DNA from: an uncultured Halobacteriovorax sp.
Lineage (GTDB): Bacteria > Bdellovibrionota > Bacteriovoracia > Bacteriovoracales > Bacteriovoracaceae
Assembly (NCBI GenBank): GCA_964352175.1
Contig: CAYGQW010000001.1
Coordinates: forward strand, 1 to 45,042
Direction of reading: 5' to 3'
Length of the DNA stretch: 45,042 nucleotides
Under the pieces are notes generated by a model. It was not told where the DNA came from and did no database searches. It saw only the letters and a list, made by a program, of their open reading frames with translations. A program made the translations under genes and the position numbers. Position 1 is the stretch's first letter; the number at the start of each line of letters is the position of its first letter. Shown here one piece after another: positions 16,386-30,450 of the stretch.

Positions 16386-17006
16386 ATGAATATACAATTA
16401 GAAAAAAGTATCAACTTTTATAACGAAATGGCGACAAGAAGATCAATTAGAGAGTTCTCTAATCAGTCGGTTGATTCATCAATTCTTATTAATGCAATTA
16501 AAACAGCTGCTACTGCGCCAAGTGGTGCCAACAAGCAGCCTTGGCATTTTGCTTTAATACAACAAACAGATATAAAAGAAAAAATCAGAACAGAAGCAGA
16601 ATCAATTGAAGAGGATTTTTATAAACGTAGAGCACCTAAGCAATGGCTAGAAGACCTAAAACCTTTCAACACAAACTCAAGTAAAGCATATCTAACCGAG
16701 GCAAGCTCATTAATCGTTGTGTTCTCCCGCACCCATTCTGAAGACGAGCTAGGATTATTACAAAAAACATATTACCCACTTGAATCAACGGGTATTGCAG
16801 TTGGTCTACTACTGGCCTCACTTCATCAGTCTGGACTAGCAACTCTAACTCACACACCTAAACCGATGGGCTTTTTAAATCAATTATTAGATTTTGATAA
16901 GACATACAAACCTTATATGATCATTGTGACGGGTCATCCTAAGTTACCCTTAAATTTACCCAATATTACGAAAAAGACTACTGATCAAATTCTAACTATC
17001 TTTTAA
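16386..17006 (+). CDS. nitroreductase-family flavoprotein
   Basis: 206 aa. Has RRSIREFS and APSGANKQPWHF, characteristic of the NADH oxidase/flavin reductase (nitroreductase) fold. Confidence 0.8.
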   Translation: MNIQLEKSINFYNEMATRRSIREFSNQSVDSSILINAIKTAATAPSGANKQPWHFALIQQTDIKEKIRTEAESIEEDFYKRRAPKQWLEDLKPFNTNSSKAYLTEASSLIVVFSRTHSEDELGLLQKTYYPLESTGIAVGLLLASLHQSGLATLTHTPKPMGFLNQLLDFDKTYKPYMIIVTGHPKLPLNLPNITKKTTDQILTIF

Positions 17007-18224
17007 ATAGTTTTGATATAATTTGAAGTACAGCTTCTTGTAATCATCGTCCTTTAGTATTGAAGACCAATTTTTTCTGAAGTTCACAAAACTTTCAAAG
17101 TCAGCACTAAAACCATTAAATTTTGAGTGATTCATATTAAAAATCGATTCCAATAAATTAGCAACCGCCTTGATCCCAAATTTCTCAATACCTATTTGTC
17201 TCGTATCGACTTCCTTTTCCAGAGAGAGAAACATTAGCTGAGCGAATTCTTTAATGGAAAAGGTTGGGCCAAACTTATCAAATTTTACATTGCATCCATC
17301 AGCAATGCCCTCTTTAGTTAAGTCTAAAAAACCTCCCCAATTTGTTAAGACACAAGGAATATTTTTTAAGACCGCCTCTCTTGGTGCAAGTCCATAATCT
17401 TCATCATGAAAAGTACTAGTACTTACAAAGCAATCCGTCTCATCTAGAACTTTATTAACTGAGGAGTAAGGTACAGCAGGATGAAACTCAATAAGCTCAA
17501 CATACCTAGAAGGAACCTTTGATAACTCTAATTCTAAATATTTATTAAAGTCTTTATCGGGAAATTGTATTTGCCTAACGGGACACCAAATATGATCTAC
17601 ATCCCCATATATTTTCAGTTTCACATCTTTATTCGTCATTTCTTTTAATAAGCAAAAAGCTGTGACTAATTGTGGAATATTTTTAGCGAAAGAGAGTCGG
17701 CCGATATAAGTGAACTGAAATATATCACTTTTAGATGTTATTCTTTTGTTGGCAAAGATTTCATCTTGAAGTGGAAAAGGAGATTTAAAAACAATCTCTT
17801 TGTTTTTAACATAGCCTTTTAATAATTTAACCTGAGCATCAGAAGCACATAAAAATGCTGTCTTTAAGTTTTCGAGGTAATGACCTAACTCAAACCACTT
17901 AATGGCATCTAAATGAAATATGCCATAGATATAAAAAATAAAGGTACATGAGTTTGAAATTTTTTCGGCTTGTAGCTTTTTTATCAGATTAATAGGAACC
18001 GGTCTATGATCAGCAAAGAAAACAATCTCAGGATGTAGTGTTCGACATATGGAGACTATACTGTCTTCTTGTGCATCAATTGAATTATGATCTAAAAAAG
18101 CCTCTTGAAATCTATAGTTACCCTGCAAGTACGCTAGACTGGCTTTAATACCATCTACAATCACCTTTCGACTCATCCAGTCATCATCGTTAATTGAAGA
18201 TATCACTATTACTGTTTTTGTCAT
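16992..18224 (-). CDS. GT-B fold glycosyltransferase (GT4-like)
   Basis: 410 aa. The C-terminal half contains the EX7E-type region HDEDYGLAPREAVLKNIPCVLTNWGGF. This is the first gene of the AT-rich island and converges on the nitroreductase gene with a 15-nt overlap. Confidence 0.65.
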   Translation of the reverse strand: MTKTVIVISSINDDDWMSRKVIVDGIKASLAYLQGNYRFQEAFLDHNSIDAQEDSIVSICRTLHPEIVFFADHRPVPINLIKKLQAEKISNSCTFIFYIYGIFHLDAIKWFELGHYLENLKTAFLCASDAQVKLLKGYVKNKEIVFKSPFPLQDEIFANKRITSKSDIFQFTYIGRLSFAKNIPQLVTAFCLLKEMTNKDVKLKIYGDVDHIWCPVRQIQFPDKDFNKYLELELSKVPSRYVELIEFHPAVPYSSVNKVLDETDCFVSTSTFHDEDYGLAPREAVLKNIPCVLTNWGGFLDLTKEGIADGCNVKFDKFGPTFSIKEFAQLMFLSLEKEVDTRQIGIEKFGIKAVANLLESIFNMNHSKFNGFSADFESFVNFRKNWSSILKDDDYKKLYFKLYQNYLKDS

Positions 18225-18286
18225 TAACTAATAATTTATCATATATAATCTACTGAATATATCTCTATCTCGAAATAGGTTTTTAG

Positions 18287-18886
18287 ATGAAACTTTATAC
18301 TGATCTAAAAAATAAAAATGAATACTTAGATTGCCAAATTAAGTTAAGGAATCACAAACACTTAATTGTTAAGGACTTTTTCAAGCATGAAGTTTTGAAT
18401 TATGTACTTCAAATTATGGGGAACAATGAAGTTTACTTTAGAGATAAGGGTCGTTCATACATCGGAAATGACGAAACATTTGATTTCTTCCACTTCAAAT
18501 CTAAGATGAATGTATTAATCAATGAAGCAGCTTTTATCAATCAAATTAGAAAAATAACTGGTGACGAAAGTATAATAGAAGCAAGAGCAAGGTACTACAG
18601 GCTCATCGGAGAAAAAAAACATTTTCTTGATTGGCATAACGATGACGGCGAGCCAAATAGAGTTTTTTCATGCCGTATAGAACTTTCAAAGAATGAATAT
18701 ACTGGTGGTGAATTTGAAATCAGGGAGAAAGAGAACCAAAAAGTGTATTGCTCTATAGGAGCCCTTGATTTTGGTAGTGCCCTTTTCTTTCCTATTGATT
18801 ATGTAAACTTAGAGCATCAAGTCAAACCCGTGACCAGCGGAGAGCGGTACTCAATCCTTCTTTGGTTTTATTGTAAAAACAAATAG
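18287..18886 (+). CDS. 2-oxoglutarate/Fe(II)-dependent oxygenase (prolyl-hydroxylase-like), paralog A
   Basis: 199 aa. HxD...H facial triad candidates WHNDDG and LEHQV, plus the 2OG-binding Arg context SGERYSILLWF. Colinear with paralog B at 25325-25924. Confidence 0.7.
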   Translation: MKLYTDLKNKNEYLDCQIKLRNHKHLIVKDFFKHEVLNYVLQIMGNNEVYFRDKGRSYIGNDETFDFFHFKSKMNVLINEAAFINQIRKITGDESIIEARARYYRLIGEKKHFLDWHNDDGEPNRVFSCRIELSKNEYTGGEFEIREKENQKVYCSIGALDFGSALFFPIDYVNLEHQVKPVTSGERYSILLWFYCKNK

Positions 18887-18989: not shown

Positions 18990-19028
18990 ATAACATGCTA
19001 CATTATTATTAAATATAATATTACGGAG
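18990..19028 (+). promoter_or_regulatory. candidate sigma70-like promoter plus RBS for the small-peptide/GT2 transcription unit
   Basis: TATAAT at 19014-19019. ATAACA (4/6 match to TTGACA) at 18990-18995 with 18-nt spacing. GGAG at 19025-19028 lies 8 nt before ATG 19037. AT-rich DNA makes chance matches likely. Confidence 0.3.
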
Positions 19029-19036
19029 CAGTAGAA

Positions 19037-19174
19037 ATGAGTGAAGATTCTAATGACTTGTTTAATAAGAAAGTTATCCTAAAAGATGAAGTCCTTGGTG
19101 AATTTTCAGTATTTGAAGTTCCTGAAGATGAAGACTTAGGTATATTCGCATTCGGTAAACTCATCGAACTCTAA
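19037..19174 (+). CDS. 45-aa acidic peptide, a candidate modified-peptide precursor; not in the supplied ORF track
   Basis: ATG 19037 follows GGAG with 8-nt spacing. Translation is MSEDSNDLFNKKVILKDEVLGEFSVFEVPEDEDLGIFAFGKLIEL. TAA at 19172-19174 lies 10 nt before the GT2 start. This is the only sizeable intergenic gap in the island. Confidence 0.45.
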   Translation: MSEDSNDLFNKKVILKDEVLGEFSVFEVPEDEDLGIFAFGKLIEL

Positions 19175-19184
19175 AGACATCTAA

Positions 19185-20237
19185 ATGATAAGTGTTATCG
19201 TACCGACACTAAATAGTGAATCAACACTAGCACTTTGCCTAAAATCAATCTTTGATCAACATATATCTTTGCCCTTTGAGGTTATTGTCAGCGACTGTGG
19301 AAGTAGCGACACAACCGTCCAAATCGCGAAACGATTTAATGCACACATTACCTTAAGTCAAAAGAAGTCAGCGTCTGCTGCCAGAAATAAAGGCGCACAA
19401 ATAAGCTCAGGTAGCTATCTTGCGTTTATAGATTCAGATGTTGTCTTAAGTGATAACTGGCTTGAACAGAACTTTCAATCACTGAACGAAACAATCTTTG
19501 ATGTTTCTCAATCACCAGTAATACCAAGCGGCCCAAGTACATTCATTAACTCCTATCGCAAGCAGTTATCAAAGATATACACCAAAGGTACTTATAACCA
19601 TATTGATGTCGATCAAGTGCCTAAAATGACAGTTAATACTGCTGCTTGCATGCTAAAAAAGGAAGCCTTTGTAAAAGCCGAAGGCTTTGATGAAAACCTA
19701 CTAAAGTTAGAAGACACAGATCTCATGACGAGAATTTTTTACTCTTGTGGAAATTTCACCATTAGTAAGAATACAACTGCGCAAGTTTTTCGAACCGGCA
19801 ACTTGCTGGACTATATAGCTAGAAGCTTTCAAATAGGCTGTCAAACTAAAAGTTTCAAAAATAAATGGCAGCATACTTCCACGATACCTAGTCATCCATA
19901 CTTTACAAACTTCAAACATAGTATATTTTTTAAGTTTTTATTAATGACAAGTAAAGTGGGTGAACATTTAAGCCAAAACACAAACACCAACTTTAAAAAA
20001 TATATACCAAAAACAATAAAGTCGTACAAAAAAGCAGTGATTAAAAACGGAGATCAAACATATATTTTAAATCCATTTTCTCGAATCATAAATGGAACCT
20101 TCAAATCATACATCTACAACATTCTAACAAAGAAAAGTCATCCAATTGAAATCATTAACTCTAGCAACAACCAGCTATTCATCAGTGCAAAGAATATTGA
20201 GCAATTAAAAAATGATAACATCCTCTATGAAATATAA
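19185..20237 (+). CDS. GT-A fold family-2 glycosyltransferase with an extra ~100-aa C-terminal region
   Basis: 350 aa. Canonical GT2 N-terminus ISVIVPTLNSE...EVIVSDCGSSD..., ARNKGA and the DXD motif FIDSDV. The C-terminal third has no recognisable motif. Confidence 0.85.
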   Translation: MISVIVPTLNSESTLALCLKSIFDQHISLPFEVIVSDCGSSDTTVQIAKRFNAHITLSQKKSASAARNKGAQISSGSYLAFIDSDVVLSDNWLEQNFQSLNETIFDVSQSPVIPSGPSTFINSYRKQLSKIYTKGTYNHIDVDQVPKMTVNTAACMLKKEAFVKAEGFDENLLKLEDTDLMTRIFYSCGNFTISKNTTAQVFRTGNLLDYIARSFQIGCQTKSFKNKWQHTSTIPSHPYFTNFKHSIFFKFLLMTSKVGEHLSQNTNTNFKKYIPKTIKSYKKAVIKNGDQTYILNPFSRIINGTFKSYIYNILTKKSHPIEIINSSNNQLFISAKNIEQLKNDNILYEI

Positions 20238-22012
20238 GCCGAATCAACAGGGAAAAACTTCTCTTTTCTTCCAGAATGTCCTGATACAGAGAAAACGATA
20301 TTACCTTTAAGGTCATCAACAAGAGATGTGCGTTTCCTTATAGCTAAGCTACAGTCAAAATAATCAAAAAATAGATTTTTTGTAGCATCAATTAAATTCT
20401 GTTTTAAAAACTCATCTAACGACAGAGAACTAGCATGACAAACCTTGTTAGCACTGTCTAGCTTGAACGGAAAATAAAACTGCTCATGATTAATAATTCC
20501 ATCAACCGTACTAGTTAATGAGGATCGATCTGAATCAACGAGTGAATCTTTACCTTTAAGAAAGCTGCTTACTAAAGTATAGGAAAGTTTTAACTTACGA
20601 TCCAATTTTCGATTGATATTAAAATTATGAACTTTTGATTTTACCTCAGACTTGGAATTAATTAGTGTAAAGGAAGTAGAGTCAAAAATTTTATGACCTG
20701 AGACAACAGAGTCGAGTCGGCCGAATTGAATCTTACTAAAAGAGTCTTGTTCATTAAGGTCGTCTAAAAATAAGTTAAAGGCTTTAATCGTAAAAATTTT
20801 TAAACTATTAATATCTAAATCACAGTTATCGTAAAGGTTTCTTAAAGCCGTAACAAAAAGCAAGCAGTCAGAACTATCAACAAAAGTAAGGCGTGCCATT
20901 TGGGAAATGTAGTTAAAGAATAAATCCTCAAAATGACCAAAGCTATAGTTTCTTAAAAGGTTGGCTTGCTTAAATTTTTTAAAATAAATATGAAGTGTAT
21001 TTAAGAACTGCACCAAGGAACAATAAGCATGTAAAACATCCTTACCTTCAAGGTCACAAAGATCCTCAATCATGTGAGTAAGCTCACCGCTCCCCTTGTC
21101 GCGTTCTACAGAGAACATAAAAGTATAGTTACCAGGGCCAAACTTATTATCTATCCCCTGCATATCAACTAATTTGCCATCAACGCAAAAGTTTTCATGA
21201 TTAAAATGAGGATGATTAAAACCCATATGCACAAAACTTGCTAATTGAAACACAAGGTTGGAAAAATAAGTTTCGCCTTTGTCTTCATCAATTGAACTAA
21301 GAAATAAAAAATCATTTGCAGCTAAAAGGTCTGTATTTAACTGTGAAATTCTTAGCGAATAAGGCTCTCTTGCCATGGGATAAGAGAGTAAATTATTTGT
21401 AGATTTTGCATAAAAAAGTGCAATACTTGAGACTGAACCTAAAAAGGTACCAGAAGCGACAATTCTTGATAAGAAAAGTGAGTATATTGACTCGTGAAGA
21501 CTGGAACCTCCCCAACTATTGCCCAAATCGTCAAATCCAACAAATTGATTTCGGCCAATGCCTTTAATCTCGATATTACCTATAAGGTAGTTTCGTCCTT
21601 TTCCAAAATGAGCTTTAAAAGATGAGCAAAATGATTCAACTAAAACATACAAAGAGTCATTATCCAGACTACCATGAGAATTAATCAGTCCACCTGGGTT
21701 ATCATTAGTAAGATAGATAAGATTTTCAAACCTATAAGTAGAGGAAGATGAAGGTCTGCTAAATCCGTTACGATAAGATAAGCATAGATCATCAATATTA
21801 TTAGGACGACTATTTTGAGTGGTAGTCTTCAGACGTTCAAGAAAAGATAGCGACTCAATCAAATCTTTTTCTTTTCTACGATCAATATAAAAAACAAAAG
21901 AATCAGAAGGTTTTGAAACAGAAACGGCAGAAAAAAAAGAACTCCAAAGATGACGATAATCCTTGGTAGATATCAAGTTTATATGATTAAACACATCATT
22001 TGTCATAAACAA
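20225..22012 (-). CDS. large protein of unknown function with possible protein-kinase-like/SelO-like motifs
   Basis: 595-aa ORF in very AT-rich DNA, where long chance ORFs are unlikely. The probable start is ATG 22006 (track start is TTG 22012). Motifs seen: IEIKGIGRN (res ~147-155), GGSSLHES (res ~168-175), and FVHMGFNHPHFNHENFCVDGKLVDMQG (res ~260-286). These resemble the Gly-rich loop, the conserved Glu, and the catalytic-loop Asn/Mg-binding Asp of kinase-fold enzymes. The gene lies directly downstream of the PqqD-like gene. Confidence 0.6.
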   Translation of the reverse strand: MFMTNDVFNHINLISTKDYRHLWSSFFSAVSVSKPSDSFVFYIDRRKEKDLIESLSFLERLKTTTQNSRPNNIDDLCLSYRNGFSRPSSSSTYRFENLIYLTNDNPGGLINSHGSLDNDSLYVLVESFCSSFKAHFGKGRNYLIGNIEIKGIGRNQFVGFDDLGNSWGGSSLHESIYSLFLSRIVASGTFLGSVSSIALFYAKSTNNLLSYPMAREPYSLRISQLNTDLLAANDFLFLSSIDEDKGETYFSNLVFQLASFVHMGFNHPHFNHENFCVDGKLVDMQGIDNKFGPGNYTFMFSVERDKGSGELTHMIEDLCDLEGKDVLHAYCSLVQFLNTLHIYFKKFKQANLLRNYSFGHFEDLFFNYISQMARLTFVDSSDCLLFVTALRNLYDNCDLDINSLKIFTIKAFNLFLDDLNEQDSFSKIQFGRLDSVVSGHKIFDSTSFTLINSKSEVKSKVHNFNINRKLDRKLKLSYTLVSSFLKGKDSLVDSDRSSLTSTVDGIINHEQFYFPFKLDSANKVCHASSLSLDEFLKQNLIDATKNLFFDYFDCSLAIRKRTSLVDDLKGNIVFSVSGHSGRKEKFFPVDSAYIS

Positions 22013-22065: not shown

Positions 22066-22332
22066 TTAAACAAGTTCAATGAGATCCTGTTCTTCAAGCT
22101 TTTTAATAAAGTCAGACACCTTATCTTTAACGCTATCATTAGAAAGCTTTAAATCTTCAACTTTTTTATAAAAGTCACTTTCATCTATGCCGTCTTCAGA
22201 TAAAAGCAGCCAGATATTTTTGAAGTGACCGCGTAAAGTGTAAAAAGCTTCATTACCTGTAAATGAAACCAAGTAGATTTCATCTGCTTTCTCTGTCACC
22301 ACTACAGAACTTTTAATTTTAATAATACTCAT
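22066..22332 (-). CDS. stand-alone PqqD-like protein (RiPP recognition element type)
   Basis: 88 aa. N-terminal beta-strand region (VVVTEKADEIYLVSFTGNEAFYTL) is followed by ...NIWLLLSEDGIDESDF...VKDKVSDFIKKLEEQDLIELV. This matches the PqqD pattern (y.LN....iW.ll.......l.......d...Dv..Fl..L.e.gLi). Confidence 0.6.
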   Translation of the reverse strand: MSIIKIKSSVVVTEKADEIYLVSFTGNEAFYTLRGHFKNIWLLLSEDGIDESDFYKKVEDLKLSNDSVKDKVSDFIKKLEEQDLIELV

Positions 22333-22418
22333 TGATACCCCTTAATTAAGTATTATAACTTGAATATATTAGGATATAAATAAATAAAACCTAACGCCCC
22401 ACACTAAATACGAGGTTG

Positions 22419-23288: not shown

Positions 23289-23769
23289 AATTTAACTCCT
23301 TACAATCAATTTCAATTGTATTAGTTAAACTACCTTCATCTAACTCTTGCTTTGAATGATATGTATCAATAATACTATCTTGATTCTTACCACTAACTTC
23401 ATAGATGAATATCTTCAAGCGAGACGAGGGATCGAGTCCCGAGCACAGATGCCTATTCCTATGAGAAACTTGATATTTTTTATAAAAAAACATCGCTTTA
23501 TAAAACATATTATTGTGGCGATGGTCGAACAAAACATTGTAAGGCAGCATAGATCTGTTTTTAACAAATAAAAGATGTTCTTCATTGTTTATATATTGCA
23601 CTACTTTATATTTAGTATTATATTTTTTAACTAAAAAAAGCGCCCAACTTCCGTCTTGAAAGAAAGTCTTTCCCAGTACATTAAAAAACGATTTTTTGTA
23701 GTAATTGTTTATCGTCGTTCCCTCGAGAGGTATGACGATAAACAGAAGAGATAGAAATATCAACAGCAA
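23281..23769 (-). CDS. small N-terminally anchored protein translationally coupled to the HTTM gene (SdpA-like position)
   Basis: 162 aa from the first canonical start, TTG 23769 (MLLIFLSLLFIVIPLEG...). The in-frame upstream codons ATA 23805/ATT 23802 would add IIKKKYQTLLSF, a positively charged n-region. Size and gene order mirror sdpA-sdpB, but no sequence motif is recognised. Confidence 0.45.
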   Translation of the reverse strand: MLLIFLSLLFIVIPLEGTTINNYYKKSFFNVLGKTFFQDGSWALFLVKKYNTKYKVVQYINNEEHLLFVKNRSMLPYNVLFDHRHNNMFYKAMFFYKKYQVSHRNRHLCSGLDPSSRLKIFIYEVSGKNQDSIIDTYHSKQELDEGSLTNTIEIDCKELNYD

Positions 23770-25324: not shown

Positions 25325-25924
25325 ATGAAATTTTTTTCAAAACTAAGAAATCCACAAGCATATTTAGACTACCAAAGGATCTTCCAAGAAGATAAATATG
25401 TCATCGTTAATAATTTTTTTCATAGCGATTTTCTAAATTCTTTAATAACTATTATGAGTGATAGACAGGACTACTATATACCCTCTACTCACAATTTAGG
25501 ACTAGACGATACTTTTAAATTTACCCCTCTCGATCGAAAGAGTGAGATTCTTCTTAATGATGAAAAATTCTTACATGAAGTAAGGATGTTTACCGGAATA
25601 AGCTCAATTACGCATGCCAAGCCTCGATTCTACAGAATTAAATCGGGTGCAGAGCACTTCCTCTCTTGGCATAATGATGACGGCGAACCCAATAGAGTTC
25701 TCGCCTGTCGGATTGAGCTGTCAACTAGTTTTTATAAGGGTGGTGAATTTGAAATAAGAGAAATAGGAAAGAAAGAACCATTTGTTTCAATTGGACAACT
25801 AAAGTTCTCGCAAGCGGTATTTTTTCCTGTAGAAACAAATAAATTTGAACACCAAGTAAAACCCCTAACCGAAGGAGAAAGATACTCTTTTTTAATTTGG
25901 TTCTATGAAGGAGCAAGATTATAA
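25325..25924 (+). CDS. 2-oxoglutarate/Fe(II)-dependent oxygenase, paralog B
   Basis: 199 aa, colinear with paralog A. The core is nearly identical: HFLSWHNDDGEPNRVLACRIELS...GGEFEIRE...FEHQVKPLTEGERYSFLIWF. Confidence 0.7.
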   Translation: MKFFSKLRNPQAYLDYQRIFQEDKYVIVNNFFHSDFLNSLITIMSDRQDYYIPSTHNLGLDDTFKFTPLDRKSEILLNDEKFLHEVRMFTGISSITHAKPRFYRIKSGAEHFLSWHNDDGEPNRVLACRIELSTSFYKGGEFEIREIGKKEPFVSIGQLKFSQAVFFPVETNKFEHQVKPLTEGERYSFLIWFYEGARL

Positions 25925-26844
25925 ATATCGGAATAAAAGAAATACAAATTTACGAACCAGAAGATAAAATTTCGGCCGAGTCCTTAGGGATTAAGTTCTC
26001 CTTAGAGGGATCATTTATTGAGGAAAAAATAGGATTTAGGAACTTTGGAAAATTTTCGAAACAAGAAGATAATTTCTTTGTATTACAGAATGTCATTAAA
26101 CAACTTAAACGTTATGAAAATATTAAAAATAAAATTGACTTTTTAATAGTAAGTACTCCAATGCCTAGTCATATAGCTCCACATATGTCTGAAATGCTAC
26201 GTGATCAGCTTGAGCTTTCTTCAAATGTATTTACCCTTGATGTAAATCTTGGTTGCACCGGTTATGTAAAACCTCTCATGATTATTAATTCACTTATGAA
26301 AGATTATAAATTCAAGCAGGGAATCCTATTAACAATTGCTCAAACTAGAAAATCCATACAAGATAATGACAAAGACACAAACTTAATTTTTGGTGACACA
26401 GCAAGTGCAACTTTAATTAGTGATGATACGAACTATAAGTTTAATTCTTTCAATTTTGGCTCAAACTCAAAAAAGGATAGTTTTAAAGCAATTATTGGAA
26501 ATACAGGCAAACATTTCACTATGGATGGTAGAGGGGTTTATGAATTTGTACTTAAAAATATTCCACCTGCAATACGTGAGATAAGTGAAAATAATGAAAT
26601 TGATTATTATATATTTCACCAAGCCTCAAAGGTTATCGTTGAGCAATTAGCTAAAAGATTAAAAATAGAAGAAAATCAATATAGCTTCAATACGAAGATG
26701 CCTGGAAATTCAGGCGCTACAACTATCCCATATAATTTAAAAAAAATAATTGAGAATAAACAATATAAAAAAATACTGCTTAGCTCTTTTGGATCAGGCC
26801 TTGAATGGGCAAATTGTATTTTAGAAAGGGTCGATAATGAGTAA
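25921..26844 (+). CDS. KASIII (FabH-like) condensing enzyme/acyltransferase with a probable non-canonical start
   Basis: The track lists only 26161-26844. The frame is open from 25909 and encodes a FabH-like N-terminus (INIGIKEIQIYEPEDKISAESL...). Cys-His-Asn triad contexts are NLGCTGY, IFHQAS and PGNSGATTIP. Starting at ATA 25921 places the Cys at residue 112. GAAGGAG (25907-25913) lies 7 nt upstream of ATA 25921. There is no ATG/GTG/TTG in frame before 26161. Confidence 0.65.
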   Translation: MNIGIKEIQIYEPEDKISAESLGIKFSLEGSFIEEKIGFRNFGKFSKQEDNFFVLQNVIKQLKRYENIKNKIDFLIVSTPMPSHIAPHMSEMLRDQLELSSNVFTLDVNLGCTGYVKPLMIINSLMKDYKFKQGILLTIAQTRKSIQDNDKDTNLIFGDTASATLISDDTNYKFNSFNFGSNSKKDSFKAIIGNTGKHFTMDGRGVYEFVLKNIPPAIREISENNEIDYYIFHQASKVIVEQLAKRLKIEENQYSFNTKMPGNSGATTIPYNLKKIIENKQYKKILLSSFGSGLEWANCILERVDNE

Positions 26845-27079
26845 CGAACAAGCTATACAATCTATACAAAACTCTTTTGTTGAAGCTGGGTTTGAGGGAA
26901 AGCTAGATTATAAAAATCTAGCGATACCACTAGATCAGCAAGGGATTGATTCATTAACCATGATGGCATTTGTTTTTGAGTTAGAAGAATCAACAAGTTT
27001 TAGATTACCTAATCATATGCTGCAAAAAGGCATTACTTTAAAACAAATTATTCAATTTTTATGTTCCGAATCTAAATAA
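26837..27079 (+). CDS. acyl/peptidyl carrier protein (ACP/DltC-like)
   Basis: 80 aa. Phosphopantetheine attachment context QQGIDSLTMMAFVFELEE. 8-nt overlap (ATGAGTAA) with the KASIII gene. Confidence 0.75.
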   Translation: MSNEQAIQSIQNSFVEAGFEGKLDYKNLAIPLDQQGIDSLTMMAFVFELEESTSFRLPNHMLQKGITLKQIIQFLCSESK

Positions 27080-27675
27080 GAATAAACAGTGAGTAGATGA
27101 TTGCCCATTACAAAAGAATCAAAGCATACAAAGTCAGTAAACGAATTATTTCTAAGCTTAATAGAAACGCTTTCATTCTTTATTGTACCAAGCTGTGAGT
27201 ACTTCAGTCTAGTAGCTATCAGTTTATCGAATCGATTAAAATCTGTTGTCAAAATATCCCTAGCGGACTCCAAAACAAGATTTAAAACATCAGAAGTTAA
27301 AGTTGAACTAGCAATAAATTCACGTTCAAAAGAAGTGCTTTTAGTAAAATCGGGGGAGTAGTCCTCAAGTTGTTCAATTTTTTTCAAAGGAGAAGAGTTA
27401 CTAACGCCATAGTAGTTAATTCTTCTACCATTAATATATACAACTTCAACTTTAAAAAGTTGAGACTCATGTTCCATAATCCTATCAACAAGCTTTACAG
27501 TGGTACTAACAGGAGATTTAAAAATAATGTCTATTGTTTTGAAGTCTTTAAATAAAGTCTCAATTGATAAAAGTATATCAACAGCTTTAACGTATAAACG
27601 TCCATTAAGGAGACTGATATCTATAAGTTCTAGTCTAGAATTGAAAATAAACAAACTCCTTAATGCCATAAACAC
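27052..27675 (-). CDS. hypothetical protein, last gene of the SGNH-MBOAT operon
   Basis: 207-aa ORF in AT-rich DNA with no recognised motif. It overlaps the MBOAT 3' end by 41 nt (same strand) and the carrier-protein 3' end by 28 nt (convergent). The start is uncertain. Confidence 0.4.
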   Translation of the reverse strand: MFMALRSLFIFNSRLELIDISLLNGRLYVKAVDILLSIETLFKDFKTIDIIFKSPVSTTVKLVDRIMEHESQLFKVEVVYINGRRINYYGVSNSSPLKKIEQLEDYSPDFTKSTSFEREFIASSTLTSDVLNLVLESARDILTTDFNRFDKLIATRLKYSQLGTIKNESVSIKLRNNSFTDFVCFDSFVMGNHLLTVYSYLDSEHKN

Positions 27676-29035
27676 TAAATCGAATTAAACTTATCGTTAG
27701 AGTAGATAATAGAAAAGTAAAAATGATTGGATTTAATTTTGATATTTTTTTAATTAAATTAAATTTAAAATCAATGTATTGAAATACGACAGTTAAAATA
27801 GCTAATACAAAAAGAATTGGAGGCACTTCCCTCCCTAATTCAGACCAATTGAAAATACGAAGATAGAGGTTGGTAAAATTAGAATCAGTTAGATTGATCG
27901 TGACTAGAGATGTTAACGAAAACCATATTAAAGTAATAATCACAGATAATAAACTAGGAAGCTTAAAATTTGAGTACTTTGAAAACAATATAGAAAAAAC
28001 AAAAGCAATCAAATGTATAGCAAACCAATATAAAATATTTGAGCCGATTGCGTGCCAAAAACCCGAAAAAGCAAAACTAATAAAAATGGCAACAAAGATG
28101 GAAAGTTTTGTTTTTTTTGTTTTAAAATAAAAAAACCTAGCGATAGGACTGAAAATGTAATCACGAATAAAATCATAAAAAGTGATATGCCACGAAGCCC
28201 ATCTTTGCACAATATTTTTCGCTAGAAGAGTATTAATAAAGTTCTGTGGTATTTTAAATCCAAGTAATCCAGCTAAACCAACGGATATATCCGAATAAGC
28301 TGAAAAATCCAGATACAGTCTAATATAATTCAAAAATGATATCTGGAAAATACCTAAAGAATTATATAGCTCATTATGATCATTAAAGTAACTGATCTCA
28401 TAAGAAAATCTATCGGCGAGAACTAGTTTTTTAAAAAAACCAATTACAATAAGGAGTATGTACTTTCTAAAGTCGATAGCTTTAAAATATTTAGAAGATC
28501 TCAATTGTGGCAAGAATTCATCTGACCTAACAATTGGACCAGCAATAAGTTGTGGAAAGAATGAAATATATAGTAGGAAATCAAAAATAGAGTTTGAAGC
28601 CTCTAAACGACCATTATAAACATCAACAACATAACTAATTGACTGAAAAGTATAAAAGCTTATACCCAAAGGAAGAACAATACTTAAGCTTGTTACATCA
28701 TCAGCTAAAACAGTTGGAAAATATTGGTCAAAAAAACCAATAAGGGAGGCAAGGTATTTAAATCCAAATAGTAGCGAAAGATTTAAGGCTAGACTTGTAA
28801 GGAGAAGAATTTTTCTGCTCTTCGTATTTTTTTCTTTCGAAATTATTTTTGCCAGGTAATAGTCTGTCAGTGATGAAAATATAATAAGACTTAAAAATCT
28901 ATAGTCCCAAAAAGAATAAAAGACATAGCTGCTTAAAAGTAAAAAGAAATTGCGCTGATTATTCTTTGGCAATAACCAATAGGATATGAATACGACTATA
29001 AAAAATAATATAAAAGAAAAGTCTACATATAACAT
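27635..29035 (-). CDS. membrane-bound O-acyltransferase (MBOAT; AlgI/DltB/PatA family)
   Basis: 466 aa, polytopic. Family hallmarks: GISFYTFQSISYVVDVY, FFPQLIAGPIVR, and the conserved His context FSGFWHAIG. Confidence 0.85.
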   Translation of the reverse strand: MLYVDFSFILFFIVVFISYWLLPKNNQRNFFLLLSSYVFYSFWDYRFLSLIIFSSLTDYYLAKIISKEKNTKSRKILLLTSLALNLSLLFGFKYLASLIGFFDQYFPTVLADDVTSLSIVLPLGISFYTFQSISYVVDVYNGRLEASNSIFDFLLYISFFPQLIAGPIVRSDEFLPQLRSSKYFKAIDFRKYILLIVIGFFKKLVLADRFSYEISYFNDHNELYNSLGIFQISFLNYIRLYLDFSAYSDISVGLAGLLGFKIPQNFINTLLAKNIVQRWASWHITFYDFIRDYIFSPIARFFYFKTKKTKLSIFVAIFISFAFSGFWHAIGSNILYWFAIHLIAFVFSILFSKYSNFKLPSLLSVIITLIWFSLTSLVTINLTDSNFTNLYLRIFNWSELGREVPPILFVLAILTVVFQYIDFKFNLIKKISKLNPIIFTFLLSTLTISLIRFSVYGIKEFVYFQF

Positions 29036-29967
29036 CAGTTTTTATTCTTTTTTAATGGAGTACAGATAGACTCTCCAATTCGTTGAGAAATAAGTCTTGC
29101 TCCCCCTCTATTTGGATGACTGTGATCGTACCAATATTCAACGTCATACAAATCACGATCGCTATTTGGACTCAAAACTAGAGAATCATCTAATTGAGTT
29201 TTTAAAAAGTGCTCATTGCCTATTGAGAAATTATAGGGCAATAGCAATTTATAGCTAATTTTATCCAAATCTAAATAAGTCATATTCCTTAAAATATCAT
29301 TAGGCTTTTGTGATAAATCCGAATGATTATAATTTTCAACTTTCAATCTGAATTCCTCTAAAGACTTTTCTTCTAAGAATTTGGTGTGACGTTTAAAATT
29401 ACGACCGAACTGATCGTCTAAAGCCCACCAACCCATTTGTCCAACTGGATAACTACCAATTGAGCTTTGAGATGCAAACCAATGACTAGCACTATAGCCA
29501 TGGCCTAAATTGTGCTTCAAAAATCTTTTAATTAACTTTATTTTGTCAGCGAGTGTTGGAGATTGACTCCATTCGAAAGTGAACGCATCCCAATCAAGTG
29601 TTAAAATTGATTGATAACTAAACTCGTTATTATCAAAATTTACAAATGGATAGATGAAAAAAGTAGTTTTAACCTGTGAATGCTTTTTTATATAATCAAT
29701 AACAAAGTCATAATCTTTGATCGACATATTTGGAATCGAAAAATTAAAGCTACTAATATTACAGCCATTAGCTTTTGCATATTCATCAACAACTTTAGGA
29801 TTGATCGTACGATAATAATTACTCGCACCTAAAAAAATAACATTATGTACTTGAGGATTATAATCAATGAATTTTTCAGAAAAGTGCTTTATATATGGAG
29901 GGAAAAAATATGCAAGAGACCTCCCTCCCAAAAACAAAACAGTCAAATATAGTAAAATGTATTTCAC
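29035..29967 (-). CDS. N-terminally anchored SGNH/DltD-like partner of the MBOAT
   Basis: 310 aa with a signal anchor. Block I-like VIFLGASN and block V-like YDHSHPNRGGARLISQRI (DxxH). Its stop overlaps the MBOAT start (TGATG), the classic two-component O-acyltransferase arrangement. Confidence 0.55.
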   Translation of the reverse strand: MKYILLYLTVLFLGGRSLAYFFPPYIKHFSEKFIDYNPQVHNVIFLGASNYYRTINPKVVDEYAKANGCNISSFNFSIPNMSIKDYDFVIDYIKKHSQVKTTFFIYPFVNFDNNEFSYQSILTLDWDAFTFEWSQSPTLADKIKLIKRFLKHNLGHGYSASHWFASQSSIGSYPVGQMGWWALDDQFGRNFKRHTKFLEEKSLEEFRLKVENYNHSDLSQKPNDILRNMTYLDLDKISYKLLLPYNFSIGNEHFLKTQLDDSLVLSPNSDRDLYDVEYWYDHSHPNRGGARLISQRIGESICTPLKKNKN

Positions 29968-30042
29968 ATTTATTATTATACCTTTAATTACTATAACTTG
30001 AATTAGTTTGATTGAATTTTAATCGTTGTTTAAAATAAATGT

Positions 30043-30450
30043 ATGAAAAAAATATTTCAATTTCCTATGTGGCCTTGGTGGTTTTTTGCCTTATTCGTAA
30101 TTTTAGATTTCTATTACGCCTTTGCCTCATGGGAAGATATCCGTAAATCAATCGGATGGATAAAACATATTCCGCAAAAGACAGATTTTAAAATAAGACA
30201 TATAGTACAGTTTTCGCCACAAGCTATTTGGTTGTATTGGATATTCTTCGTACGCCAAAACAGGTCCTTAAAAGTTTCATTTATTTTATCATTTTTAATC
30301 ATAAGCTTAATAGGCGCTCTTAGCGAAGCAATACAAATTTTAAGTCCAACGAGAATTCCAACATTTCAAGATGTCTTTTGGAATGTTGTCGCGGCCTTAA
30401 TTGGTAGTTCATTTTCATATCTTTATTTTAGATACAAAAAAGCCCGCTAA
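30043..30450 (+). CDS. VanZ-like membrane protein
   Basis: 135 aa with 4 hydrophobic segments. VanZ-family motif GALSEAIQILSPTRIPTFQDVFWNVVAALIG. Confidence 0.7.
   Translation: MKKIFQFPMWPWWFFALFVILDFYYAFASWEDIRKSIGWIKHIPQKTDFKIRHIVQFSPQAIWLYWIFFVRQNRSLKVSFILSFLIISLIGALSEAIQILSPTRIPTFQDVFWNVVAALIGSSFSYLYFRYKKAR

What the first reader, a model, noticed from the sequence alone, without database searches (positions are those of the whole stretch)
16992..30450. AT-rich ~13.5 kb island: candidate undescribed peptide/envelope modification system (RRE + HTTM + kinase-fold ORF + 2x 2OG oxygenase + 3 glycosyltransferase-type genes + carrier-protein/MBOAT acylation)
Composition drops sharply in this region. 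Spot counts give 11/60 GC at 24901-24960 and 17/60 at 28381-28440, versus 23/60 at 7501-7560 and 29/60 at 5401-5460 in the men operon.

The gene set does not match a standard O-antigen or capsule locus: I saw no sugar-nucleotide synthesis genes and no Wzx/Wzz/ABC exporter. Instead it brings together several features characteristic of RiPP pathways. These are a stand-alone PqqD-like peptide-binding chaperone, a short acidic ORF abutting a GT2 (the glycocin-like arrangement), tailoring oxygenases, and an sdpA/sdpB-like pair (SdpAB mature the SdpC peptide toxin in Bacillus). A lipid/acyl transfer module (KASIII, carrier protein, MBOAT, SGNH partner) sits alongside them.

The architecture is two divergent units, each headed by a paralogous oxygenase. 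I know of no described system with this combination. No integrase or transposase marks the borders.
Basis: partly seen in the sequence, partly recalled or inferred. Interest (0 to 1): 0.8.

Follow-up and report, generated by a model that had tools for sequence, protein, structure and literature searches.

The report
New peptide-modification cluster with SelO-like enzyme
An AT-rich 13.5-kb stretch of a Halobacteriovorax-like predatory bacterium holds a small peptide gene, a peptide-binding chaperone, a SelO-like kinase-fold enzyme, oxygenases and sugar transferases; this gene set recurs in other uncultured bacteria and looks like an undescribed family of ribosomal peptide modification, here joined to a membrane acylation module.

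Summary
The four GC spot counts are exact.

The RiPP-like reading is supported for a core of six parts.
- The 88-aa ORF is a PqqD-type RRE; its model matches TbiB1 at TM 0.80.
- The 595-aa orphan is a remote SelO-like kinase-fold enzyme with SelO's Lys, two Arg, Asn and Asp motifs in place.
- The 45-aa acidic ORF upstream of the GT2 gene belongs to a conserved peptide family.
- A GT2, usually a GT4, and an Fe/2OG or cupin oxygenase complete the set.

All nine other neighbourhoods of SelO-like homologues I could inspect carry part of this set. None of the 50 family members matches any Pfam model, and I know of no described RiPP class with this enzyme.

Not supported: the HTTM/SdpAB call and a third glycosyltransferase. 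No HMM matches them and they are orphans.

The KASIII-ACP and MBOAT genes are intact, and KASIII uses a non-canonical start. They form a Dlt/Alg-like acyl-transfer module found only here. It is tied to the core only by a paralogous oxygenase and a shared 20-nt upstream motif.

GC3 is not lowered, so recent horizontal transfer is not shown. The chemistry of the product is inferred, not demonstrated.

The parts
16992..18224 (-). GT4-family glycosyltransferase (410 aa), divergent from oxygenase a
   Evidence: It matches PF00534 at 7.9e-14. phmmer gives 2.6e-23 to the GT4 in the peptide operon of L025-27. GT4 genes also lie beside SelO-like genes in L022, the P0009 contig and L031.
18287..18886 (+). 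Fe(II)/2OG oxygenase a (199 aa), first gene of the plus-strand unit oxygenase-peptide-GT2
   Evidence: It matches PF13640 at 1.4e-12. The HxD...H and Arg residues are visible in the alignment. A PF13640 oxygenase also sits in the P0009 contig. Cupin_8/JmjC oxygenases sit in L005 and L022.
18990..19019 (+). sigma-70-like promoter candidate just upstream of the peptide gene
   Evidence: ATAACA-18-TATAAT scores 10 of 12. This is a consensus match only, and the number of such sites in the region equals the shuffle expectation.
19037..19174 (+). 45-aa acidic candidate precursor peptide MSEDSNDLFNKKVILKDEVLGEFSVFEVPEDEDLGIFAFGKLIEL
   Evidence: A GGAG lies 8 nt before the ATG, and the GT2 gene starts 10 nt after the stop. 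The peptide has 12 acidic and 4 basic residues and no Cys. L005 has a homologous 50-aa ORF in the same position, upstream of the orthologous GT2. Family members are also in L028, L029 and L030, and tails with the same motif are in L022 and L032. An HMM built from four peptides finds the untrained L030 peptide at 4.7e-4 and a second L028 copy at 2.9e-5. Single-sequence similarity alone is weak: E = 0.15 among 7583 ORFs.
19185..20237 (+). GT2-family glycosyltransferase (350 aa), GT-A domain plus a C-terminal extension of about 120 aa
   Evidence: It matches PF00535 at 2.2e-25. The best NCBIfam hit is MftF at 82.8 bits, below the 280-bit cutoff. phmmer gives 6e-60 to the L005 GT2, with tblastn identity of 36% over residues 1-323. 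Weaker matches go to the GT2 genes of L022 and L032. Its 3' end overlaps that of the SelO-like gene in convergent orientation, as in L005, L022 and the P0009 contig.
20225..22012 (-). SelO-like kinase-fold enzyme (595 aa); candidate class-defining enzyme
   Evidence: It has no Pfam, NCBIfam or PADLOC hit. It is an orphan in the word-indexed search. An exhaustive HMMER search finds 50 distant relatives, the best at 27% identity; none has a Pfam match. The AF2 model has pLDDT 78 and pTM 0.84. The Foldseek top hit is P. syringae SelO 6eac at E 1.6e-5, prob 1.0, but TM is only 0.32-0.38; protein kinases follow. hhalign against E. coli SelO gives E 5.4e-5. It aligns K150, R215/R221, H267, N271, E273, N274 and D283 to SelO K107, R170/R177, H240, N244, D246, N247 and D256. 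K150, R215, R221, N274 and D283 are invariant across the family.
22066..22332 (-). stand-alone PqqD-type RiPP recognition element (88 aa)
   Evidence: NCBIfam lasso_PqqD_Bac matches at E 0.0068 over the full length, which is below its cutoff. The profile's top PDB hit is TbiB1 at E 0.018 over the full length. The AF2 model has pLDDT 76.7. Foldseek gives TbiB1 at TM 0.80, rmsd 1.7 A, prob 1.0, and hits 1-14 are all RRE domains. Homologues lie next to SelO-like genes in L005 (4e-7), L025-27 (2e-4) and L031. The P0009 contig has a PF05402 protein.
22346..22365 (-). 20-nt motif ATTCAAGTTATAATACTTAA, 14 nt upstream of the RRE start (copy 1)
   Evidence: A second copy with 2 mismatches lies 17 nt upstream of the 310-aa ORF. 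Chance expectation is 0.01 matches in the window. The motif contains a TATAAT-like hexamer.
22419..23288 (-).
   Evidence: It has no Pfam or NCBIfam hit even at E up to 10. It is an orphan and has no PDB sequence hit. BLASTP against a recalled GGCX sequence gives E 0.37. A terminator-like hairpin follows at 22415-22397.
23281..23769 (-).
   Evidence: No family hit was found. It overlaps the start of the 289-aa gene by 8 nt.
23825..25294 (-). 489-aa membrane protein with about 9-10 TM segments plus a C-terminal soluble part of about 120 aa; function unknown
   Evidence: The only hit is a sub-threshold match to DUF6541 at E 0.066. There is no meaningful PDB hit. It shows no collinear similarity to the 396-aa membrane protein of L025.
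25325..25924 (+). Fe(II)/2OG oxygenase b (199 aa), paralogue of a; first gene of the oxygenase-KASIII-ACP unit
   Evidence: It matches PF13640 at 6.3e-10. It is 46% identical to oxygenase a over 195 residues, E 4e-66.
25918..26844 (+). KASIII (FabH-like) enzyme, 308 aa, with a non-canonical start codon (ATT, ATA or ATC at 25918-25927)
   Evidence: The mechanical ORF starts at 26161, but the frame is open from the TGA at 25906-25908 and an AGGAG precedes it. The 308-aa version aligns to FabH structures from residues 2-12 onward, for example 3il4 at 7e-26 covering 12-318. The Cys (LGCTGY), His (FHQAS) and Asn (GNSGA) of the catalytic triad are present in the sequence.
26837..27079 (+). acyl/peptidyl carrier protein (80 aa) with a DSL phosphopantetheine site
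   Evidence: It matches PF00550 at 4.7e-5, with weak NCBIfam ACP hits. The GIDSL motif is in the sequence.
27052..27675 (-). 207-aa soluble protein of unknown function, last gene of the MBOAT unit
   Evidence: No family hit was found and no TM segment. By my own estimate from the base composition, an ORF this long is very unlikely by chance at 31% GC.
27635..29035 (-). MBOAT-family membrane O-acyltransferase (466 aa), DltB/AlgI-like
   Evidence: It matches PF03062 at 8.8e-20. NCBIfam DltB scores 102.7 bits, below the 375-bit cutoff. The RWxxWHI and GFWH motifs are in the sequence.
29035..29967 (-). 310-aa membrane-anchored, probably extracytoplasmic protein; candidate partner of the MBOAT
   Evidence: It has no HMM or PDB hit. 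GASN and DHSHP motifs were seen by eye only, so SGNH/DltD membership is untested.
29984..30003 (-). 20-nt motif ATTCAAGTTATAGTAATTAA upstream of the 310-aa gene (copy 2)
30043..30450 (+). VanZ-family small membrane protein (135 aa), right edge of the AT-rich stretch
   Evidence: It matches PF04892 at 7.9e-8 and NCBIfam vanZ_1 above its cutoff.

Best explanation
**Core cassette (about 16992-22332).** This part of the island is a ribosomal-peptide (RiPP-type) modification cassette of a family that has not been described.

- The 45-aa acidic peptide is the substrate.
- Its conserved N-terminal and central motifs (LG[SE]F.., then [AV]F[GA]K) are bound by the stand-alone PqqD-type RRE. The RRE presents the peptide to the enzymes.
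- The SelO-like kinase-fold enzyme uses ATP to nucleotidylate the peptide (AMPylation, as SelO does) or to phosphorylate it.
- One or both Fe(II)/2OG oxygenases hydroxylate it. The likely site is the short acidic tail ([I/Y/F]-[D/E]n-L).
- The GT2 and GT4 enzymes add sugars.

**Accessory genes.** The rest of the island is specific to this Halobacteriovorax-like lineage. It has two parts:
- three uncharacterised membrane or exported proteins;
- an acyl-transfer module, in which KASIII loads an acyl group on the carrier protein, the MBOAT passes it across the inner membrane, and the anchored 310-aa protein delivers it.

This module follows the logic of DltABCD, AlgIJF and PatAB. It acylates either the exported glycopeptide or an envelope glycan.

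**Shown:** folds, families, active-site motifs, gene order and the recurrence of the core.
**Inferred:** the substrate, the order of steps, the chemistry, export, and any link between the core and the acylation module.
For: **RRE.** Foldseek gives TM 0.80 to TbiB1, and the top 14 hits are all RiPP recognition elements. Two independent full-length weak profile matches agree.

**SelO-like enzyme.**
- The model has pLDDT 78.
- SelO is the only Foldseek hit below 1e-3.
- hhalign gives E 5.4e-5, with SelO's Lys, the two Arg, the H..N.[DE]N loop and the metal-binding Asp all in register.
- Those residues are invariant among 50 relatives.

**Peptide.** It is conserved, syntenic with the orthologous GT2 in L005, and detected by HMM in loci that were not used for training.

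**Recurrence.** All 9 other inspected neighbourhoods of SelO-like genes carry a peptide of this family, an RRE, a glycosyltransferase or an oxygenase:
- L005
- L022-24
- the P0009 contig, which has PF05402, PF13640 and a GT4
- L025-27
- L028
- L029
- L030
- L031
- L032

**Exclusions.** No polysaccharide-export or sugar-nucleotide genes are in the island. No defence-system match was found.

**Acyl module.** KASIII is full-length with its catalytic triad. The carrier protein and MBOAT motifs are intact.

**Links between core and module.** The oxygenases are 46% identical paralogues, one heading each unit. A 20-nt motif lies upstream of both the RRE/SelO-like unit and the MBOAT unit, with a chance expectation of 0.01.
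Against: - No experiment or product is known.
- Single-sequence similarity between peptides is weak (E 0.15).
- The Foldseek match to SelO has a low global TM (0.32-0.38), and hhalign probability is only 67%.
- The putative catalytic base is Glu, not Asp.
- No leader peptidase or exporter is conserved in the core loci. L005 has none within 10 kb. The product may therefore not be a secreted natural product.
- The neighbourhoods inspected were the top hits of one search, not a random sample, and several contigs are only 3-4 kb.
- The accessory genes have no counterpart in any related locus, so their participation rests only on adjacency, paralogy and one short motif.
- GT2, GT4 and an MBOAT with an anchored partner are also typical of polysaccharide loci.
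- The literature could not be searched because the tool failed six times. A recent description cannot be excluded.
Confidence: 0.6

Rival explanations
1. The island contains two unrelated systems that merely sit side by side. One is the RiPP-like core (GT4 through RRE). The other is an envelope glycan or lipid acylation locus (oxygenase b, KASIII, ACP, MBOAT, the 310-aa partner, the 207-aa protein, VanZ, and perhaps the 489/162/289-aa membrane proteins). The second system would modify LPS, capsule or peptidoglycan, as Dlt, Alg and Pat systems do.
For: None of the accessory genes occurs in any of the related loci. MBOAT with an anchored partner is the standard arrangement for O-acylation of extracytoplasmic polymers; the closest NCBIfam model is DltB. 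A terminator-like hairpin separates the 289-aa gene from the RRE gene.
Against: Oxygenase b, which heads the KASIII-ACP unit, is a 46% paralogue of the core oxygenase. The 20-nt motif is shared by the RRE unit and the MBOAT unit, against a chance expectation of 0.01. All genes lie in one compositional block. The related L025-27 clusters also carry lipid-type tailoring genes (UbiA, SDR, a membrane protein) in the same operon as the peptide and RRE.
Confidence: 0.3
2. The whole island is a cell-surface polysaccharide or LPS modification locus. The small ORF is not a substrate, and the PqqD-like protein and kinase-fold protein have regulatory or scaffolding roles.
For: The island has GT4, GT2, MBOAT, VanZ and multi-pass membrane proteins of unknown function that could be a polymerase or flippase. 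The low GC content is typical of surface-glycan loci.
Against: No sugar-nucleotide synthesis, Wzx, Wzy, Wzz or ABC domain was detected. The small ORF is conserved and syntenic. RRE domains are peptide binders, and all top structural matches are RiPP enzymes. The minimal L005 cluster is only peptide, GT2, SelO-like, RRE and cupin, set among housekeeping genes.
Confidence: 0.07
3. The cassette modifies an intracellular small acidic protein for regulation or stress signalling, as SelO/YdiU AMPylates or UMPylates cellular proteins. It would not make a natural product.
For: SelO's known role is protein NMPylation (my own knowledge). No conserved exporter or leader peptidase lies in the core loci. 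In L022 and L032 the peptide appears to be fused to a larger N-terminal domain.
Against: Co-occurrence with glycosyltransferases, oxygenases, UbiA and methyltransferases is typical of biosynthetic tailoring. The peptide tails are hypervariable behind a conserved leader-like region.
Confidence: 0.1

Closest known systems
SelO / YdiU protein adenylyltransferase (pseudokinase-fold AMPylase; PDB 6eac, 6iii, 6k20)
   Same: SelO is the best structural match of the 595-aa protein. hhalign puts SelO's motifs in register: LGDGR..HLKGAG, R-x6-R, H..N.DN and the LDYG Asp. These residues are invariant in the new family. From my own knowledge, in SelO they hold ATP in a flipped orientation for AMP transfer.
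   Different: None of the 50 family members matches Pfam's SelO model or any other Pfam model, even at E up to 10. Sequence identity is about 12%. Glu replaces the Asp before the Asn. The protein has an extra N-terminal part of about 115 aa and a C-terminal part of about 170 aa. It is encoded next to an RRE and a small peptide, which is not known for SelO.
Lasso-peptide B1 proteins / PqqD-type RREs (TbiB1, PDB 5v1u/5v1v), including lasso clusters with kinase and glycosyl tailoring (paeninodin, pseudomycoidin; from memory)
   Same: The 88-aa protein is a stand-alone RRE with the same fold (TM 0.80, 26% identity). A precursor peptide and ATP-using and sugar-adding tailoring enzymes are present.
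   Different: There is no B2 protease and no asparagine-synthetase-like cyclase in the window. The kinase-fold enzyme is SelO-like, not HPr-kinase-like.
Mycofactocin pathway (MftA peptide, MftB RRE, MftF GT2)
   Same: Both have a short peptide with a conserved C-terminal end, a PqqD-type RRE and a GT2. The GT2's best NCBIfam hit is MftF. Neither has a dedicated exporter.
   Different: The MftF score is 82.8 bits against a cutoff of 280. No radical-SAM MftC, MftD or MftE is present.
Glycocins (SunA/SunS type)
   Same: A small peptide gene lies directly upstream of a GT2 gene that has a C-terminal extension.
   Different: The peptide has no Cys. There is no thiol-disulfide oxidoreductase and no ABC transporter or peptidase. 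Glycocin clusters (from memory) have no RRE, kinase-fold enzyme or oxygenase.
DltABCD, AlgI/J/F/X and PatA/B extracytoplasmic acylation systems
   Same: Both combine an MBOAT, a small carrier protein and a membrane-anchored extracytoplasmic partner.
   Different: The loader is a KASIII homologue, not a DltA-type adenylating ligase. The partner and the 207-aa protein match no DltD, SGNH or AlgF model. An Fe/2OG oxygenase heads the operon.
SdpA/SdpB (HTTM) maturation pair of the SdpC toxin
   Same: Only gene sizes and order resemble it: a 162-aa gene followed by a multi-pass 289-aa gene, with overlapping genes.
   Different: There is no match to the Pfam or NCBIfam libraries, which to my knowledge include HTTM and SdpA/SdpB models, at E up to 1-10. 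BLASTP against GGCX gives E 0.37.

Membership tests
PqqD-type RiPP recognition element (RRE) | Winged-helix fold with a three-stranded sheet followed by three helices, matching solved RREs | tested here: met
   The AF2 model shows strands followed by 3 helices. Foldseek gives TbiB1 at TM 0.80, rmsd 1.7 A, prob 1.0, followed by the RRE domains of TbtB, ThcOx, McbB, PbtF and lasso B1.
PqqD-type RiPP recognition element (RRE) | Sequence match to PF05402 or an NCBIfam PqqD model above the curated cutoff | tested here: not met
   The window protein has no PF05402 hit. NCBIfam lasso_PqqD_Bac scores 16.5 bits against a cutoff of 80, at E 0.0068 but over the full length. The neighbour of homologue P0009 does carry PF05402.
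PqqD-type RiPP recognition element (RRE) | Binds the leader of a co-encoded precursor peptide | not testable with these tools
   A conserved peptide is co-encoded. Binding needs an experiment.
SelO/YdiU AMPylating pseudokinases | Protein-kinase-like fold closest to SelO | tested here: met
   6eac is the top Foldseek hit at E 1.6e-5 over 467 columns. The next hits are PknG, AAK1 and others at E of 7e-3 or higher. Global TM is low (0.32-0.38).
SelO/YdiU AMPylating pseudokinases | SelO active-site residues (Lys, two Arg, Asn, metal-binding Asp) conserved | tested here: met
   hhalign places them in register. K150, R215, R221, N274 and D283 are invariant in 50 sequences. The residue before the Asn is Glu instead of Asp.
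SelO/YdiU AMPylating pseudokinases | Match to the Pfam SelO/UPF0061 family model | tested here: not met
   None of the 50 family members matches it at E up to 10. The protein is a remote relative, not a member of that family.
SelO/YdiU AMPylating pseudokinases | Transfers AMP (or UMP) from the nucleotide to a hydroxyl of the substrate | not testable with these tools
   This needs a biochemical assay.
RiPP biosynthetic gene cluster | A short precursor gene conserved and co-located with the modifying enzymes | tested here: met
   Peptides of one family lie beside SelO-like, GT2 or RRE genes in the window, L005, L028, L029 and L030. Motif-bearing tails occur in L022 and L032, and a second peptide type in L025-27 and L031.
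RiPP biosynthetic gene cluster | Leader peptidase and/or exporter | tested here: inconclusive
   None is conserved in the related loci. In the window, two S8 proteases lie just outside the island, and three membrane or exported proteins of unknown function lie inside it.
HTTM / SdpB (289-aa ORF) and SdpA (162-aa ORF) | Profile match to HTTM/VKGC or to NCBIfam SdpA/SdpB models | tested here: not met
   No hit at E up to 1 in NCBIfam or up to 10 in Pfam. No PDB sequence hit. BLASTP against a recalled GGCX gives E 0.37.
KASIII (FabH) thiolase-fold enzymes | Full-length match with the Cys-His-Asn triad | tested here: met
   The 308-aa translation from 25918 aligns to FabH structures over nearly their whole length, for example 7e-26 to 3il4. 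The triad residues are visible in the alignment. The start codon is non-canonical.
Dlt/Alg/Pat-type MBOAT acylation systems | MBOAT with the conserved His motifs | tested here: met
   PF03062 matches at 8.8e-20. The WHI and GFWH motifs are in the sequence.
Dlt/Alg/Pat-type MBOAT acylation systems | DltD, SGNH or AlgJ/X-type extracytoplasmic partner | tested here: inconclusive
   The 310-aa ORF has an N-terminal anchor and GxSN and DxxH-like motifs seen by eye. It has no HMM or PDB match.
Dlt/Alg/Pat-type MBOAT acylation systems | DltA-type ligase that loads the carrier protein | tested here: not met
   No adenylating enzyme is in the island. A KASIII homologue precedes the carrier protein instead.
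O-antigen / capsule locus | Sugar-nucleotide synthesis genes and Wzx/Wzy/Wzz or an ABC exporter | tested here: not met
   No such domain is found in 16992-30450. Two multi-pass membrane ORFs remain unassigned.

The most novel reading that the evidence does not exclude
The window holds a founding member of a new RiPP class whose defining enzyme is a SelO-like nucleotidyl or phosphoryl transferase guided by a stand-alone RRE. The product would be a hydroxylated, glycosylated and possibly AMPylated short acidic peptide. It could equally be a small molecule cut from the peptide's conserved C-terminal tail, as in mycofactocin. In this predatory Halobacteriovorax-like bacterium the product would be further acylated outside the cytoplasm by a KASIII-ACP-MBOAT relay, giving a glycolipopeptide of the cell envelope or a secreted effector used in predation.
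Probability: 0.35. Interest if true: 0.85.

Novelty: new variant of a known kind. Interest (0 to 1): 0.72.

Why it matters
SelO is one of the most widely conserved kinase-fold enzymes, yet it is known only as a protein AMPylase or UMPylase of stress responses. A remote SelO-like clade that travels with an RRE, a precursor peptide, glycosyltransferases and oxygenases would matter in three ways.

- It would add nucleotidylation (or a new kind of phosphorylation) by a pseudokinase fold to the chemistry of ribosomal natural products.
- It would define a gene family of about 50 sequence clusters that no Pfam model covers.
- It would make that family directly testable, since four small soluble proteins and a 45-aa peptide can be expressed in E. 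coli.

The host matters too. Bacteriovoracales prey on Gram-negative bacteria, and their specialised peptides and envelope modifications are almost unexplored. The KASIII-ACP-MBOAT relay would also be a variant of Dlt-like trans-membrane acylation with a new type of loader.

Tried and rejected
**Homologue searches that found little.**
- Word-indexed searches found nothing but the query itself for the 595-aa and 289-aa ORFs. Exact-sequence look-ups of two start variants of the 595-aa ORF failed.
- A genome-contig scan with the two oxygenase paralogues returned three Novosphingobium loci. These hold only a distant oxygenase C-terminal half, with no RRE, SelO-like or peptide hit. The window's own genome is not among the GTDB representatives.
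- The metagenome scan could not use the SelO-like alignments because no conserved stretch was long enough. With the GT2 alignment it returned only generic GT2 loci, L006-L021.
- tblastn of the SelO-like protein against plasmids found no match.

- HTTM/SdpAB: no Pfam, NCBIfam or PDB hit. I rejected it as unsupported.
- Relating the 489-aa membrane ORF to the 396-aa membrane protein of L025 gave only non-collinear, low-complexity matches.

**Rival systems excluded.**
- Defence system: PADLOC gave only a generic 2OG domain.
- RNA elements: Rfam found only tRNA-Met at 40455.
- Mobile-element borders: no tRNA at the edges and no flanking repeats.

It was redone with search-derived sequences.
- The RRE-likeness of the N-terminal parts of the L022 136-aa and L032 174-aa proteins is by eye only. 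The independent RRE HMM does not detect them, and the P0055 hit is circular.
- Literature search and reading failed every time. Prior description could therefore not be checked. Statements about SelO mechanism, lasso tailoring, mycofactocin, glycocins and Dlt/Alg/Pat rest on my own knowledge.

Full report
**1. The observation**

The composition claim is exact. The four 60-nt spot counts are 11, 17, 23 and 29 G+C. The interval 16992-30450 has 31.1% GC, against 37.4% on the left and 39.7% on the right. For 500-nt windows, Mann-Whitney p = 1e-11.

Third-position GC of the island genes (0.21-0.33) is no lower than that of flank genes (0.25-0.31). The dip therefore comes from amino-acid composition: many K/N/I/F-rich and membrane proteins. 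It is not evidence of recent import. There is no tRNA, integrase or flanking repeat at the borders.

The flanks are ordinary chromosome. On the left lie LysR, YHS, cytochrome c, YceI and a nitroreductase. On the right lie two S8 proteases, a trypsin-like protease, FolP, FtsH, TilS and tRNA-Met.

FtsH falls in a 90%-identity cluster with proteins named as from Halobacteriovorax sp. and a Bdellovibrionales bacterium (lineage). The host is therefore a Halobacteriovorax-like predatory bacterium. A 1.5-kb Logan contig (ERR3534985) is 100% identical to part of the island.

**2. Gene inventory**

HMM searches confirm these genes:
- GT4 (16992-18224, -)
- oxygenase a, PF13640 (18287-18886, +)
- GT2 (19185-20237, +)
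- oxygenase b, PF13640 (25325-25924, +), 46% identical to a
- KASIII
- a carrier protein (26837-27079, +)
- MBOAT (27635-29035, -)
- VanZ (30043-30450, +)

KASIII looked truncated at its N-terminus in the mechanical ORF list. In fact the frame is open from a TGA at 25906-25908, an AGGAG precedes it, and the first codons are ATT, ATA, AAT, ATC. The 308-aa translation aligns with FabH structures from their residue 2-12 onward. The gene is therefore intact and uses a non-canonical start.

Seven ORFs have no Pfam or NCBIfam family above threshold: those of 595, 88, 289, 162, 489, 207 and 310 aa.

**3. The 88-aa ORF is an RRE**

- NCBIfam's lasso PqqD model matches it end to end, weakly (E 0.0068).
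- A profile of it and its relatives has TbiB1 as its best PDB hit, again over the full length (E 0.018).
- An AF2 model built on five family sequences has pLDDT 76.7.
- That model superposes on TbiB1 with TM 0.80 and rmsd 1.7 A. Its 14 best Foldseek hits are all RiPP recognition elements: TbtB, ThcOx, McbB, PbtF and lasso B1.

**4. The 595-aa ORF is a remote SelO-like kinase-fold enzyme**

- It is an orphan in the word-indexed search.
- An exhaustive HMMER search of 1.84 billion cluster representatives found 50 relatives, the best at 27% identity.
- None of the 50 matches any Pfam family, including SelO's, even at E up to 10.
- The family profile weakly hits the catalytic loop of protein kinases.
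- The AF2 model (pLDDT 78, pTM 0.84) has P. syringae SelO as its only Foldseek hit below 1e-3: E 1.6e-5, prob 1.0, 467 columns, but TM only 0.32-0.38. PknG and other kinases follow.
- I verified the E. coli SelO sequence against PDB 6iii. hhalign of the family against it gives E 5.4e-5 and probability 67%.

The hhalign alignment puts the motifs in register:

| Window residue or motif | E. coli SelO residue or motif |
|---|---|
| FGKGR..EIK150GIG | LGDGR..HLK107GAG |
| R215, R221 | R170, R177 |
| H267, N271, E273, N274 | H240, N244, D246, N247 |
| D283 | D256 |

K150, R215, R221, N274 and D283 are invariant across the 50 sequences. From my own knowledge, these SelO residues hold ATP in the flipped orientation used for AMP transfer. 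That is why I favour nucleotidylation over phosphorylation. This preference is an inference.

**5. The 45-aa ORF is a conserved gene**

It has a GGAG 8 nt upstream, and the GT2 gene starts 10 nt after its stop.

The closest SelO-like homologue (P0002, locus L005) lies in a cluster with this layout: RRE-like 81 aa, Cupin_8 oxygenase, SelO-like gene, then convergent with a GT2 that is preceded by a 50-aa ORF. The two peptides are:
- L005: MSDEDKSIFEEIKLIDDELGSFSKFTVSDSAEKELSGQDIHAFGIKMIEL
- window: MSEDSNDLFNKKVILKDEVLGEFSVFEVPEDEDLGIFAFGKLIEL

They are collinear and occupy the same position. The GT2 enzymes are orthologous (phmmer 6e-60; tblastn identity 36% over residues 1-323) and the RREs are homologous (4e-7).

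Alone, the peptide similarity is weak (E 0.15 among 7583 ORFs). An HMM of four such peptides (window, L005, L028, L029) finds an uncalled peptide in L030 (4.7e-4) and a second partial copy in L028 (2.9e-5).

The shared pattern has three parts:
- an LG[SE][FLV] block;
- 12-17 residues later, [EI].[AV][FYW][AG], usually followed by K;
- a variable tail carrying an aromatic or aliphatic residue plus acidic residues: IEL, IEL, YEEEL, FSDD, YSDD, YDDDL, YPDD.

**6. Recurrence of the core**

Every other neighbourhood of a SelO-like gene that I could inspect carries part of the same set.

| Locus | Contents |
|---|---|
| L022-24 | JmjC/cupin oxygenase, SelO-like, GT2, GT4, 136-aa protein ending in the peptide motif |
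| P0009 contig | SelO-like, GT4, PF13640 oxygenase, PF05402 PqqD protein |
| L025-27 | SelO-like, two GT4, RRE (2e-4), 62-aa Cys/Pro-rich peptide, methyltransferase, UbiA, membrane protein, SDR |
| L028 | peptide and SelO-like |
| L029 | peptide and SelO-like |
| L030 | 85-aa RRE-like protein (HMM E 0.17 only), GT2, peptide, SelO-like |
| L031 | peptide, RRE, GT4, SelO-like |
| L032 | peptide-bearing 174-aa protein, GT2, SelO-like |

The SelO-like and GT2 genes converge with overlapping 3' ends in the window, L005, L022 and the P0009 contig.

Three caveats apply. These were the top hits of one search, not a random sample. Several contigs are short. The apparent RRE-peptide fusions are judged by eye only.

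**7. What is not conserved or not supported**

Ten island genes have no counterpart in any related locus: the 489-, 162- and 289-aa ORFs, oxygenase b, KASIII, ACP, the 207-aa ORF, MBOAT, the 310-aa ORF and VanZ.

The HTTM/SdpAB idea fails every profile test I could run. The 489-aa ORF (about 9-10 TM segments) has only a sub-threshold DUF6541 hit, so a third glycosyltransferase is not shown. The 310-aa ORF is membrane-anchored and carries GxSN and DxxH-like motifs by eye, but it matches no DltD or SGNH model.

No defence-system model matches beyond a generic 2OG domain, and there is no Rfam element in the island.

**8. Links between the two halves**

- Each plus-strand unit is headed by one of the oxygenase paralogues.
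- A 20-nt motif (ATTCAAGTTATA[AG]TA[CA]TTAA, containing a -10-like hexamer) lies 14-17 nt upstream of both the RRE start and the start of the 310-aa/MBOAT unit. Chance expectation is 0.01.
- The related L025-27 clusters also contain lipid-type tailoring genes in the peptide operon.

These are hints, not proof.

**9. Interpretation**

The best-supported reading is a RiPP-type cassette of an undescribed family. It comprises the peptide, the RRE, the SelO-like enzyme, oxygenase(s), GT2 and GT4. In this lineage it is coupled, perhaps functionally, to a Dlt/Alg-like acylation relay in which a KASIII homologue replaces the adenylating loader.

Folds, motifs, synteny and recurrence are shown. The substrate, the chemistry, the order of steps, export and the coupling are inferred.

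The main rival is that the acylation half is an independent envelope-modification locus. A pure polysaccharide locus is unlikely. An intracellular regulatory modification of a small protein cannot be excluded, because no exporter or leader peptidase is conserved.

**10. Novelty**

RiPP clusters with RREs are a known kind. From my own knowledge, a SelO-like enzyme as the recurring partner of an RRE and a peptide is not. The family lies outside all Pfam models. I could not check the literature because every call to the paper tools failed. I rate it a new variant of a known kind, with interest 0.72.

Noticed in passing
window 25906-26160: The KASIII gene has no ATG, GTG or TTG start for its first 81 codons. 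The frame opens right after a TGA, an AGGAG precedes it, and the likely start is ATT, ATA or ATC at 25918-25927, which overlaps the stop of oxygenase b. A standard gene caller would truncate the gene or miss its N-terminus.
   Followed up: yes
window 22346-22365 and 29984-30003 (- strand): A 20-nt motif with a -10-like hexamer lies at the same distance upstream of two different minus-strand units, RRE/SelO-like and 310-aa/MBOAT. The similarity extends into the Shine-Dalgarno region. It could be a shared promoter or operator.
   Followed up: partly
window 16992-30450 versus flanks: Island genes have lower overall GC but the same GC3 as flank genes. The AT-richness reflects protein composition rather than foreign codon usage.
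   Followed up: yes
window 31934-33442 (- strand): This S8 protease gene has 46% GC, the highest in the window (GC 0.49 for 32001-33000). Its protein ends in GGGACGS, then a hydrophobic helix, then basic residues, which resembles a GlyGly-CTERM or MYXO-CTERM sorting signal. No NCBIfam sorting-signal model matched.
   Followed up: no
window 20225-20237; L005 7744-7749; L022 11621-11635: The SelO-like and GT2 genes are convergent with overlapping 3' ends in the window and in three related loci. This is an unusually conserved tail-to-tail arrangement.
   Followed up: partly
L028 850-954 and 710-856 (- strand): The peptide core is tandemly duplicated: ...YKVNHFDLTDIDVFAIKKYEGV* is followed by the full peptide ...FKVNDFDLTDIAVFATKKYEEEL*. 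It is either a second precursor or a remnant.
   Followed up: partly
L025 12540-19146, L026, L027, L031: A second cluster type holds a SelO-like enzyme and an RRE together with a 62-aa Cys/Pro-rich peptide (..IEVWAITYCIPPNSPYNPATCTPIG). It also has two GT4, a Methyltransf_21, a UbiA prenyltransferase, a 396-aa membrane protein and an SDR.
   Followed up: partly
L022 13658-14068 and L032 21-545: These proteins of 136 and 174 aa end in the peptide-family motif (..LEVYAKNY.., ..LDVYAKL..). Their N-terminal parts look RRE-like by eye, which suggests chaperone-precursor fusions. The independent RRE HMM does not detect them.
   Followed up: partly
window 25288-25340: Only 30 nt separate the annotated starts of the 489-aa gene (GTG 25294) and oxygenase b (ATG 25325). 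The best promoter-like site of the region (TTAACA-17-TATAAT, 11 of 12) ends 8 nt before the oxygenase start, so that mRNA may be nearly leaderless, or the 489-aa gene may start further in.
   Followed up: no
window 16386-17006: A nitroreductase-family gene (BluB/FbiB-C-like) overlaps the 3' end of the GT4 gene by 15 nt in convergent orientation. Nitroreductase-fold dehydrogenases occur in some RiPP pathways, but none is present in the related loci, so I treated it as flank.
   Followed up: no
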